Shown: positions 44,369-46,146, counted from the stretch's first letter. The stretch is 64,000 nt of DNA from Alphaproteobacteria bacterium (GCA_964291285.2 OZ219786.1:832001-896000), one strand, 5' to 3'. Program-made: numbers and translations. The notes: generated by a model not told the origin, from the letters alone.

Positions 44369-44834
44369 AGGGGCCCGCTCCACGGGAATGTCACGAAATG
44401 TCATGATCTGCATGCGCGCGGCGCATATCCTGTGGTCGTTTCAGACATGAGACCACCGTTTGTCTCCCCGCCTCGCCTGCGAGGGAAGGCCGGGGCGGGA
44501 GGCCCTCTCTCGATCCGGCACGGCCTTGCCGGAACGCGCGGCCGCCGGGCCTTCTTTCGGCCCCCTCCGCAGGCGGGAGAGGCGCTTGTGTGGCGGCAGG
44601 CCATCCTGTCGAAGCCGTATTCGCCTGCATCCCGCACATCGTTCCTTCATCCCGTTTCGTTCCCTTTCATTCCCCTCTCCCCGCCGCCGGCCTGCCCGGC
44701 AAGCGGGACCCTGATTCGCGCGTATCGCGCGGGCGCGGGCGGGTGTCGGCGCCGGCGCGGTTCGCGCACCTGATTGCGCCTGCGCCTGCCCGCGCATAAG
44801 GCCGGACGCAGGGCGCACCTTGTATCTCTCCGGA

Positions 44835-44990
44835 TCGTTGTTGCAGCTATAGTCGCAACAGCGGGAGCGGACGGGAGACCGCTAGCACCCAGGTTATGAA
44901 GACCGCGGGAGAGCATGGTTCCCCGTCCGCTGTTCCTTTGAACCCGAACAGTCGCTTGGTCCGCAGTGTGAGACCGCATTTGCAAGGACG
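44835..44990 (+). ncRNA. Putative bridge RNA
   Basis: 5' hairpin gttgttgc/gcaacagc; target loop closed by agcggacggg/cccgtccgct; donor guide acagtcgc (44948-44955) identical to the element right end (45936-45943). Confidence 0.8.
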
Positions 44991-44994
44991 GGAC

Positions 44995-45927
44995 ATGGAA
45001 CGGATATTCGTTGGCATCGACGTGGCGAAGGATCGTCTGGACGTGCATCTGCGCCCGTCCGGGGAGGCCTTTGCCGTCGCGCGCGACGGCAAAGGCCTGG
45101 AAGAGTTGTCGGCGCGCCTGGGCGGGCTGGAGGTTGCCCTCGTGGTGCTGGAGGCGACGGGCGGCTTCGAGGTCACGGTCGCGGCGGCGCTCTGCGCGGC
45201 GGGCCTGCCATTGGCGGTGGTCAACCCGCGCCAGATCCGGGACTTCGCCCGCGCCACCGGCCGGCTCGCCAAGACCGACGCCCTCGATGCGGCGGCGATC
45301 GCACAGTTCGCCGAGGCGGTCCATCCCGAGCCCCGTCCGGTGCCTGACGAGCAGGCCCGCGCGCTCGCCGAGCTGGTCGCCCGGCGGCGCCAGATCGTCG
45401 CGATGATGACCGCGGAGAGAAACCGCAGGAGGCGCCTCACAAGCCGTCGCACGATCCGCAGCGTCGACCGCGTGCTCGCCACCCTGCAACGCGAACTCTC
45501 CGACCTCGAAACCGAGCTCGGCGATGCGATCCGCAAATCCCCCGCATGGCGCCAGGCCGAGGACCTCCTCAAAAGCGTTCCCGGGGTCGGTGACGCCACC
45601 GCACGAACCCTGATCGCCGATCTCCCCGAACTCGGAACCCTCAGCCGAAGGCGCATCGCCGCGCTCGTCGGCGTCGCGCCCTTCAACCGCGACAGCGGAA
45701 CCATGCGCGGAAAGAGAACCATATGGGGAGGACGCGCCAACGTCCGCGCAACCCTCTACATGGCTGCCCTCACCGCCTCCAGGCATAACCCAACCCTCAA
45801 ACGCTTCTATCGCCACCTGATCGCGGAGGGAAAAACCAAAAAGGCTGCCCTCACCGCCGTCACACGAAAGCTCCTCACAATCCTCAACGCTATCCTCAGA
45901 GACCGAACCCCGTGGAAAACAGCTTGA
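44995..45927 (+). CDS. IS110-family DEDD recombinase/transposase
   Basis: GIDVAKD, LEATG, KTDALDA DEDD residues; SVPGVG HhH; RDSG catalytic Ser loop. Confidence 0.95.
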
Positions 45928-46146
45928 CCGACAACACAGTCGCTCTCCTGTCGGCTCCCAAAGGTATTTTTCGCGTCGGCGCCAACGCGAAAGACGAAGC
46001 GGCCTCCGGATACCGCTTCGTCCGATTCAATATAACATATGATTTAGATATGTCAATTCATTTTGAGATTTATTGCCAATAATTCGAACAAATGCGTTTG
46101 CCGATCCCGCCGTTGCACGAACGGCCCATACAGACCGAATCCTGGC

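What the first reader, a model, noticed from the sequence alone, without database searches (positions are those of the whole stretch)
44819..45955. IS110 bridge recombinase apparently programmed against the dispersed element
Seen: removing the IS restores CTTGTAT-CT-CTCCTGTCGGC, which is the reverse complement of the conserved gccgac.ggaga motif. The predicted target loop carries a right guide CGGGAGAG (44906-44913), complementary to CTCTCCCG. That is 7/8 (one G-T wobble) to the occupied site and an exact 7-nt match (TCTCCCG) to the empty copy A site (about 34564-34580, minus strand GACACAC-GT-CTCCCG). The left guide CTAGCACC (44882-44889) matches the occupied site at only 5/8 and shares CAC with copy A. 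Known: IS621 uses its bridge RNA to target REP repeats. Inference: this IS parasitises an uncharacterised repeat family whose consensus should approach CTAGCAC-CT-CTCCCG.
Basis: partly seen in the sequence, partly recalled or inferred. Interest (0 to 1): 0.75.

Follow-up and report, generated by a model that had tools for sequence, protein, structure and literature searches.

The report
Bridge-RNA insertion sequence hitting a repeat
This is an ordinary but recently active IS110-type jumping gene whose guide RNA aims it at a 12-base motif that also occurs in some copies of a repeated intergenic element.

Summary
There is a real 1124-bp IS110-group insertion sequence at 44819-45942, with a CT core repeated at 45943-45944. 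It carries an IS621-like recombinase gene and a 5' bridge RNA. The left boundary was wrong. CTTGTAT is IS sequence, present in 12 of 12 left ends. The restored site is GGCGCAC-CT-CTCCTGTCGGC. Contigs from two public runs carry exactly this empty site, so the copy is polymorphic.

The genome holds 13 copies, and the 9 intact ones are identical. Twelve reconstructed targets give (G/A)CAC-CT-CTCC(C/T)G. Across about 60 homologues the right guide and the four core-proximal left-guide bases covary with the flanks. The three distal left-guide bases (CTA) do not.

Five of 13 copies sit at one position of a roughly 300-bp element that has about 104 copies, covers 0.45% of the genome and is widespread in the genus. 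The other 8 lie elsewhere. Most element copies have a non-CT core and are unoccupied. The predicted 15-mer, allowing up to 3 mismatches, finds 0 element copies.

Verdict: a new member of a known kind.

The parts
44819..45944 (+). IS110-group insertion sequence. The removable unit is 1124 bp (44819-45942), and a second copy of the CT core lies at 45943-45944.
   Evidence: 12 left and 13 right ends share these borders. Contigs in runs X1 and X3 skip exactly 44819-45942, with 2 ambiguous letters. Nine intact copies are identical over 1122 bp.
44812..44820 (+). Left target GGCGCAC (44812-44818) plus core CT (44819-44820).
   Evidence: 12 targets: position -1 is C in 12 of 12, -2 is A in 11 of 12, -3 is C in 11 of 12, -4 is G in 8 and A in 3.
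45943..45955 (+). Core CT (45943-45944) plus right target CTCCTGTCGGC. The guided part is CTCCTG, 45945-45950.
   Evidence: RT positions 1-4 are CTCC in 12 of 12, position 5 is C in 8 and T in 4, position 6 is G in 9 of 12.
44821..44828 (+). Right donor TGTATCTC, containing the -10-like hexamer TATCTC (44823-44828).
   Evidence: CT-TGTATC is conserved in the homologue alignment. It lies 17 nt from the TTGACC of the right end once the ends are joined.
44835..44864 (+). 5' stem-loop of the bridge RNA.
   Evidence: MFE fold, z -3.73.
44866..44931 (+). Target-binding loop: an outer stem (44866-44875 pairs with 44922-44931), an internal loop carrying the guides, and a small middle stem-loop.
   Evidence: RNAalifold on 44 sequences. 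The outer stem pairs carry compensatory changes, and 14 of 27 pairs in the whole structure do.
44882..44890 (+). Left target guide CTAGCAC plus core guide CC. Only GCAC-C (44885-44889) appears to be used.
   Evidence: It reads in the same sense as LT, as in IS621 (passages). The proximal 4 positions covary with flanks at 202 of 244, against shuffles of 124.5 +/- 6.3. The distal 3 do not, at 46 of 183.
44906..44915 (+). Right target guide CGGGAG plus core guide AG (44906-44913), then the handshake positions CA (44914-44915).
   Evidence: It is the reverse complement of CT-CTCCCG. Covariation is 192 of 240 against 98.6 +/- 6.9. C44914 can pair with the last donor base, G45942. The handshake idea comes from the passages.
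44942..44993 (+). Donor-binding loop: left donor guide ACAGTCGCT 44948-44956, right donor guide ATTTGCAAG 44978-44986, handshake GA 44987-44988.
   Evidence: The LDG is identical to the right end ACAGTCG-CT at 45936-45944. The RDG pairs with CT-TG..AT of the left end. The stems are conserved or covary.
44995..45927 (+). Recombinase gene, 310 aa.
   Evidence: Pfam PF01548 and PF02371. IS621 transposase 8wt6 at E 1.5e-38 over residues 4-307. Intact in 9 of 9 full copies.
45924..45929 (+). -35-like TTGACC in the right end, overlapping the stop codon. It would form a promoter only after the ends are joined.
   Evidence: TTGACN at the same distance from the core in 46 of 48 non-redundant right ends, and TTGATC in the other 2.
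44664..44818 (+). Left half of the interrupted dispersed element.
   Evidence: nhmmer, model positions 4-159, E 5.9e-27.
45945..46087 (+). Right half of the interrupted dispersed element.
   Evidence: nhmmer, model positions 157-301, E 2.5e-13.
34440..34700 (-). Empty copy A of the element. The site GACACAC-GT-CTCCCG lies at 34579-34565.
   Evidence: Its core is GT, not CT.

Best explanation
The finding covers a complete, recently mobile IS110-group insertion sequence of 1124 bp that works like IS621.

Inferred from the family's known mechanism: the element excises as a circle. Joining its ends puts the TTGACC of the right end 17 nt from the TATCTC of the left end. This promoter drives a bridge RNA of about 160 nt, followed by the recombinase gene.

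Shown: the RNA has a 5' stem-loop, a target-binding loop and a donor-binding loop. The donor loop matches the element's own ends (ACAGTCG-CT-TGTAT). The target loop specifies about 12 bases, (G)CAC-CT-CTCC(C/T)G. Four bases plus the first core base are read by the left guide on the bottom strand. The core plus six bases are read by the right guide on the top strand.

This motif coincides with the best-conserved block of an element of about 300 bp that is widespread in the genus and has about 104 copies in this genome. Only the minority of element copies with a CT core are permissive. Five of the eight such copies are occupied. The other insertions went to look-alike sites elsewhere, at least two of them probably inside genes.

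Inferred, moderately likely: the match to the element is an adaptation to a tolerated multi-copy target, as with IS621 and REP sequences, and not a coincidence.
For: - Borders and target: 12 of 12 left and 13 of 13 right junctions. Empty-site contigs in runs X1 and X3 skip exactly 1124 bp, at a depth close to that of the flank (123.3 against 130.1, and 354.8 against 347). X2 has junction-spanning contigs.
- Protein: Pfam and the IS621 transposase.
- RNA architecture: consensus fold with 14 of 27 covarying pairs. MFE z -3.73.
- Guides: RTG against RT 192 of 240, shuffles 98.6 +/- 6.9, 0 of 2000 reaching it. LTG proximal four positions 202 of 244, shuffles 124.5 +/- 6.3, 0 of 2000. Relatives within the genus keep the stems and donor loop but carry other guides and other flanks.
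- Dose-response, counted on CT-core sites. Against GCACCTCTCCCG, occupancy is 1 of 2 sites at 0 mismatches, 9 of 83 at 1 mismatch and 2 of 931 at 2 mismatches. Of 64 sites whose single mismatch lies in the core, 0 are occupied.
- Element: 109 nhmmer hits totalling 27.7 kb. Five of 13 IS copies are in it, all at model positions 157-159 and in one orientation. Of 89 empty copies, 40 are one mismatch from the 12-mer.
- Promoter: -35 conserved in 46 of 48 right ends.
- Recent expansion: 9 of 9 intact copies are identical. This exact IS was found only in G000 among the 17 genomes of the genus searched.
Against: - Eight of 13 copies are not in the element.
- Among sites matching CACCTCTCCYG, element sites are occupied 5 of 8 and other sites 4 of 13. 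This gives no clear preference for the element beyond the motif.
- Such empty sites are no commoner than base composition predicts: 12 found, 13.7 expected.
- The left guide's core positions read CC, not CT, so one core pair is mismatched. CC occurs in 8 of 61 homologue pairs, against 40 with CT.
- None of the 80 homologous IS loci from other genomes is flanked by this element.
- No RNA, circle junction or transcription start was observed. The promoter and the RNA ends are inferred.
Confidence: 0.85

Rival explanations
1. The IS sits in CTTGTAT-CT-CTCCTGTCGGC, uses a full 7-8-nt left guide CTAGCACC, and is a dedicated parasite of a repeat whose consensus approaches CTAGCAC-CT-CTCCCG.
For: The right-guide half is correct. 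CTCTCC occurs both just inside the left end and at the right junction, which makes this reading look self-consistent.
Against: CTTGTAT is IS-internal in 12 of 12 copies and in the homologues. The empty-site contigs lack it. Bases CTA of the guide match 1, 0 and 0 of the 12 targets. The 15-mer with up to 3 mismatches gives 296 hits, 0 in the element. Eight of 13 copies lie elsewhere.
Confidence: 0.03
2. Coincidence. The guides specify a generic GC-rich 12-mer, and the resemblance to the element is a by-product with no adaptive link.
For: Occupancy of motif-bearing sites inside the element (5 of 8) and outside it (4 of 13) is not clearly different. The commonest element variant is refractory. 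Homologues elsewhere are not in this element.
Against: About 600 element 12-mers times 37 near-variants, divided by 4^12, gives roughly 1e-3. That is my own estimate, uncorrected for base composition, of the chance that a random 12-mer lies within one mismatch of a consensus 12-mer of a 300-bp element. Five of 13 insertions fall in 0.45% of the genome. Other members of the clade also sit in repeated flanks, such as the Reyranella loci L023-L038. IS621 targets REP sequences (reference 16 of PMC11208160, seen in the passages).
Confidence: 0.2
3. Base pairing is not the only determinant. A hairpin formed by the target flanks around the core helps to select sites, as reported for ISPpu10.
For: In silico, 50-nt reconstructed occupied sites fold more stably than empty full-motif sites (mean -18.0 against -13.9 kcal/mol, Mann-Whitney p 0.037, 12 against 12), often with the core in the loop. 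The abstract of bioRxiv 10.64898/2026.03.19.712850 reports a target stem-loop as a specificity determinant (abstract only).
Against: The sample is small. Three of the empty sites are copies of one repeat, so they are not independent. RNA energy parameters were used for DNA, and there was no correction for multiple looks. The ISPpu10 stem-loop is described as a 5' extension, not a bracket around the core.
Confidence: 0.15

Closest known systems
IS621 (E. coli) bridge recombinase and bridge RNA (Durrant et al. 2024, PMC11208160; Hiraizumi et al. 2024, PMC11208158; passages read)
   Same: The recombinase is homologous (E 1.5e-38). The bridge RNA lies in the long left end, with a 5' stem-loop, a target loop and a donor loop. 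The core is CT. The left guides read the bottom strand and the right guides the top strand. The RDG letters agree at the seven positions named in the passages (A157, U158, U159, U160, G161, C162, G165 against ATTTGC..G). A G follows the RDG as the handshake base. The -35 lies in the right end. A dispersed intergenic repeat is among the natural targets.
   Different: The division of labour is reversed. Here about 4+1 bases are read by the left guide and 2+6 by the right guide, whereas IS621 uses 9 and 4. The left guide's core positions are CC. Only one handshake pair is possible in the target loop. The repeat hit is an element of about 300 bp, not a REP of about 35 bp, and most of its copies are refractory because of their core.
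ISMno7-family IS110 elements of Methylobacterium nodulans plasmids (annotation seen)
   Same: Closest named relatives among the annotated plasmids, at 62.6% identity over residues 4-308.
   Different: Only about 63% identical. Their guides and targets were not examined.
ISPpu9 and ISPpu10 of Pseudomonas putida (PMC12288879, search listing only; bioRxiv 10.64898/2026.03.19.712850, abstract only)
   Same: IS110-family elements whose copies lie in repeated intergenic sequences.
   Different: There all insertions are reported to map to the repeat. Here 5 of 13 do. No structural gate has been shown here.

Membership tests
IS110 family (IS110 group) | DEDD/RuvC-like N-terminal domain plus the Tnp (Transposase_20) domain with a catalytic serine | tested here: met
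   PF01548 at 3.4e-24 and PF02371 at 4.2e-20. The alignment to the IS621 transposase covers residues 4-307, with GID, EATG, KTDxxDA and the SG serine aligned.
IS110 family (IS110 group) | No long terminal inverted repeats, a 2-bp core present on both sides, and a long left non-coding end with a short right one | tested here: met
   CT on both sides in 12 of 12 and 13 of 13 junctions. The left end is 174 nt (44821-44994) and the right end 15 nt (45928-45942). Skipping the IS leaves 2 ambiguous letters.
IS110 family (IS110 group) | A promoter assembled at the joined right-left ends of a circular intermediate | tested here: inconclusive
   TTGACC, 17 nt, TATCTC would form on joining. The -35 is conserved in 46 of 48 right ends. 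No circle junction or transcript was observed.
Bridge RNA | Two internal loops, each flanked by stems, downstream of a 5' stem-loop | tested here: met
   RNAalifold on 44 sequences, with 14 of 27 pairs carrying compensatory changes. MFE z -3.73.
Bridge RNA | The target-loop guides covary with the flanking target DNA | tested here: met
   RTG 192 of 240 against 98.6 +/- 6.9. LTG proximal four 202 of 244 against 124.5 +/- 6.3. LTG distal three at chance.
Bridge RNA | The donor-loop guides match the element's own ends | tested here: met
   LDG 44948-44956 is identical to 45936-45944. RDG 44978-44986 pairs with CT-TG and AT of 44819-44825.
Bridge RNA | The RNA is expressed and is required for recombination | not testable with these tools
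   No RNA run was listed. This needs RNA-seq and a recombination assay.
Rfam families | A match at the gathering score | tested here: not met
   The only hit is a sub-threshold one to sX15 on the opposite strand (28.1 bits against a gathering score of 55). Nothing matched the element.
REP-targeting IS (IS621-like target choice) | All or most copies lie inside one repeat family | tested here: not met
   Five of 13 copies are in the element and 8 are not.

The most novel reading that the evidence does not exclude
The IS and the genus-wide element may be in an arms race that turns on the core dinucleotide. In that reading the guide evolved in this lineage to match the element's most conserved block, and the dominance of GT, TT and CC cores among element copies reflects immunity, because a single core mismatch blocks strand exchange. 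A flanking hairpin could add a second gate. If so, this genome offers a natural series of about 100 near-identical targets that differ mainly in the core. That would be a ready-made test of core and handshake rules in a bridge system with short left and long right guides.
Probability: 0.15. Interest if true: 0.5.

Novelty: new member of a known kind. Interest (0 to 1): 0.33.

Why it matters
It adds a well-documented natural bridge-recombinase element:
- exact borders, confirmed by an empty allele;
- 12 independent targets;
- clade-wide guide covariation.

The guide geometry differs from the IS621 model system: a short effective left guide and a long right guide.

Occupancy falls steeply with each mismatch, and no site with a non-CT core is occupied. 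This gives in vivo support for specificity rules that have so far been measured mainly in E. coli assays.

For genome annotation, it shows that the CTCTCC repeat near the left end can mislead border calls by 7-9 bases. It also shows that 'targets a repeat' should be tested across all copies of an element.

Tried and rejected
- First translation attempt used the wrong frame. It was corrected to 44995.
- A core of CC was considered, because the shared sequence starts at CC. It was rejected once empty element copies showed GCAC-NT-CTCC-CG and the empty-site contigs showed a 1124-bp skip with CT ambiguous.
- Rfam gave no family at threshold for the RNA or for the element.
- Nature of the element. 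No terminal inverted repeats were seen by eye in the consensus. Orientation relative to neighbouring GC3-defined ORFs is only weakly biased, 47 against 33 on one side and 43 against 26 on the other. This test is heuristic, and the element remains uncharacterised.
- Expression. No RNA holder was listed among the runs. No circle junction ('goes back' joint) was listed among the contigs. Contigs drop rare forms, so neither result counts as evidence.
- Two other joints (44777 to 45963, and 44785 to 45995, both 'between: not known') are most simply paralogous element copies and were not used.
Two sites look coding: C1:248263 with GC3 0.95, and C3:1703380 with a 1626-nt frame and GC3 0.83.
- No structure prediction, complex prediction or large protein search was run, because the family assignment was already clear.
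- Supplementary tables of PMC11208160, which list natural target motifs and orthologue guides, were not opened. They may already include relatives of this element.

Full report
**What is there.** The window is G000:C2:832001-896000. Positions 44995-45927 encode a 310-aa protein with the two IS110 domains, PF01548 at 3.4e-24 and PF02371 at 4.2e-20. It aligns over residues 4-307 to the IS621 transposase, 8wt6, at E 1.5e-38. The closest named relatives among annotated plasmids are ISMno7-family transposases at 62.6% identity. Upstream lies 174 nt of non-coding DNA and downstream only 15 nt. That is the layout of the IS110 group, in which the bridge RNA sits in the left end (passages of PMC11208160).

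**Borders.**
- BLAST of the region against the genome found 13 right ends and 12 left ends.
- Every right end reads ...ACAGTCG-CT-CTCC and then diverges.
- Every left end reads divergent flank, then C-CT-TGTATCTCTCC....
- Empty copies of the surrounding repeat read ...GCAC-NT-CTCC-CG..., which fixes the core as CT.
- Independent confirmation came from public runs. Contigs of runs X1 and X3 join 44818 to 45943. They skip 1124 bases, 2 letters fit on either side, and there are no other differences. Their depth is close to that of the unique flank (123.3 against 130.1, and 354.8 against 347).
- In run X2, contigs span both junctions.
- The restored site is therefore GGCGCAC-CT-CTCCTGTCGGC, and this copy is polymorphic among samples of the same organism label.
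- The nine intact copies are identical over 1122 bp and have open reading frames.
- Three further copies carry other high-copy insertion sequences nested in the bridge-RNA region, and one is truncated at its 5' end.

**The RNA.**
- The left end folds better than shuffles, z -3.73.
- I fetched 80 homologous loci at 61-93% protein identity and aligned 44 distinct left ends.
- The consensus fold has a target loop and a donor loop, each an internal loop between stems. Fourteen of 27 pairs show compensatory changes. The 5' stem-loop comes from the single-sequence fold; the consensus fold leaves that region unpaired.
- The donor loop holds ACAGTCGCT (44948-44956), which is identical to the right end plus core.
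- It also holds ATTTGCAAG (44978-44986), which pairs with CT-TG..AT of the left end. Its letters are the same as those given for the IS621 RDG at the seven positions named in the passages read.
- The target loop holds CTAGCAC-CC (44882-44890) in the sense of the left target, and CGGGAG-AG (44906-44913) antisense to core plus right target. This is the strand arrangement described for IS621.
- The base after each right-hand guide (C44914 and G44987) can pair with the last base of the other partner (donor G45942 and target C44818). This fits the handshake scheme.
- A TTGACN hexamer sits at a fixed distance from the core in 46 of 48 distinct right ends. After the ends are joined it lies 17 nt from TATCTC. 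This promoter is inferred, not observed.

**Are the guides real guides?**
- Across 40 non-redundant homologue pairs, the six non-core RTG bases match their own right flank at 192 of 240 positions. Shuffled pairings give 98.6 +/- 6.9, and none of 2000 reach the observed value.
- For the left guide, the four core-proximal positions match at 202 of 244, against 124.5 +/- 6.3.
- The three distal positions match at 46 of 183, against 41.7, which is chance.
- In this clade the left guide therefore effectively reads four bases plus the first core base, and the right guide reads the core plus five or six bases. That is the reverse of IS621's 9 and 4.
- Congeneric relatives keep the stems and the donor loop but carry different guides and sit in different flanks.

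**Targets in this genome.**
- Twelve reconstructed targets give (G in 8, A in 3)-C-A-C, then CT, then CTCC (12 of 12), then C in 8 or T in 4, then G in 9 of 12.
- The distal left positions never follow the guide: C, T and A are matched in 1, 0 and 0 of 12 targets.
- Occupancy falls with distance from GCACCTCTCCCG, counted on CT-core sites: 1 of 2 sites at 0 mismatches, 9 of 83 at one, and 2 of 931 at two.
- None of the 64 sites whose single mismatch lies in the core is occupied.
- The tolerated mismatches lie at the outer end of either guide or are rG:dT wobbles.

**The dispersed element.**
- A profile built from 89 empty copies finds 109 hits totalling 27.7 kb, or 0.45% of the genome. Allowing for split copies, that is about 104 elements.
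- The element is found in 10 of 12 other genomes of the genus and in 0 of 8 genomes of other families in the class.
- Five of the 13 IS copies have element halves on both sides, always at model positions 157-159 and in one orientation. Eight copies do not.
- Among the 89 empty copies, the best 12-mer is one mismatch from the guide-specified motif in 40, two in 21 and three in 22.
- The commonest site is GCAC-GT-CTCCCG (24 copies). Only three empty copies read GCAC-CT-CTCCTG.
- Of the eight element copies with a permissive site, five are occupied.
- Outside the element, 4 of 13 full-motif sites are occupied. I therefore see no preference for the element beyond the motif itself.
CTAGCACCTCTCCCG with up to 3 mismatches gives 296 hits, and none lies in an element copy. 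Element copies appear only at 4 mismatches (45 of 2513).
- None of the 80 homologous loci elsewhere is flanked by the element.
- This exact IS occurs only in G000 among the 17 genomes of the genus searched.

**Interpretation.** The mechanism is that of a bridge recombinase. The left half, the predicted consensus and the exclusivity are wrong. I think it more likely than not that the guide's near-identity to the element's most conserved block is adaptive. My rough estimate for a chance match is about 1e-3 before allowing for base composition. IS621 with REP sequences, and the repeated flanks of the Reyranella homologues, show the same habit. Even so, the element's common core variants are refractory, so 'parasite of the element' overstates it.

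**A weak extra signal.** Reconstructed occupied sites fold into more stable hairpins than empty full-motif sites, -18.0 against -13.9 kcal/mol, p 0.037, 12 against 12. This recalls the target stem-loop reported for ISPpu10 (abstract only). I treat it as a lead only.

**Novelty.** This is a new insertion sequence of a known kind. Targeting of intergenic repeats by IS110 elements, and bridge RNAs with long right guides, are both in print (passages; listing). I did not open the supplementary tables of PMC11208160, which may list relatives.

Noticed in passing
G000 C2:1145259-1147405; C3:1142108-1143558; C3:1703455-1706995 (equivalent to window 44865-44895 of the IS): Three copies of the IS110 element carry other high-copy insertion sequences nested inside the bridge-RNA region. 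Each inserted element gives 26 to 52 BLAST hits longer than 400 bp in the genome. The genome is very rich in insertion sequences.
   Followed up: partly
G000 C2:1299883, C3:683726, C3:881251: A different insertion sequence, with ends CCGACTTCCGCAACTCGG..., interrupts the same dispersed element at ...GGGACCCT in at least three copies. The element is therefore hit by more than one IS family.
   Followed up: no
window 46029-46056, minus strand: The AT-rich end of the element carries a near-consensus promoter-like site, TTGACA-16-TATATT (11 of 12 plus TG). It points into the element and, at this locus, into the right end of the IS, antisense to the recombinase gene. Copy A lacks a site that meets the scan's criteria.
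   Followed up: partly
window 44853-44967, minus strand: A sub-threshold Rfam hit to the Xanthomonadaceae sRNA sX15 (28.1 bits against a gathering score of 55) lies on the strand opposite the target-binding loop. That family may overlap IS110 left ends.
   Followed up: no
L020, L022-L038, L056, L074 (Reyranella and related MAG loci): Homologous insertion sequences share near-identical flanks...CTTCGAGACGC..GCTC-CT-[IS]-CAGGGTGA. They too sit in a repeated sequence that matches their own guides.
   Followed up: partly
window 34300-34860 and about 104 sites genome-wide: The element is about 300 bp long and widespread in the genus. It has GC-rich palindromic blocks (CGCGCCGGCGCG), a GAAGCGGC...GCCGCTTC hairpin and an AT-rich end. 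It has no Rfam match, no obvious terminal inverted repeats and only a weak orientation bias relative to neighbouring genes. Its nature is unresolved.
   Followed up: partly
G000 C1:248263 and C3:1703380: Two insertions outside the element lie in long open frames with coding-like GC3 (0.95 and 0.83), so they probably disrupt genes. This rests on a heuristic only.
   Followed up: partly
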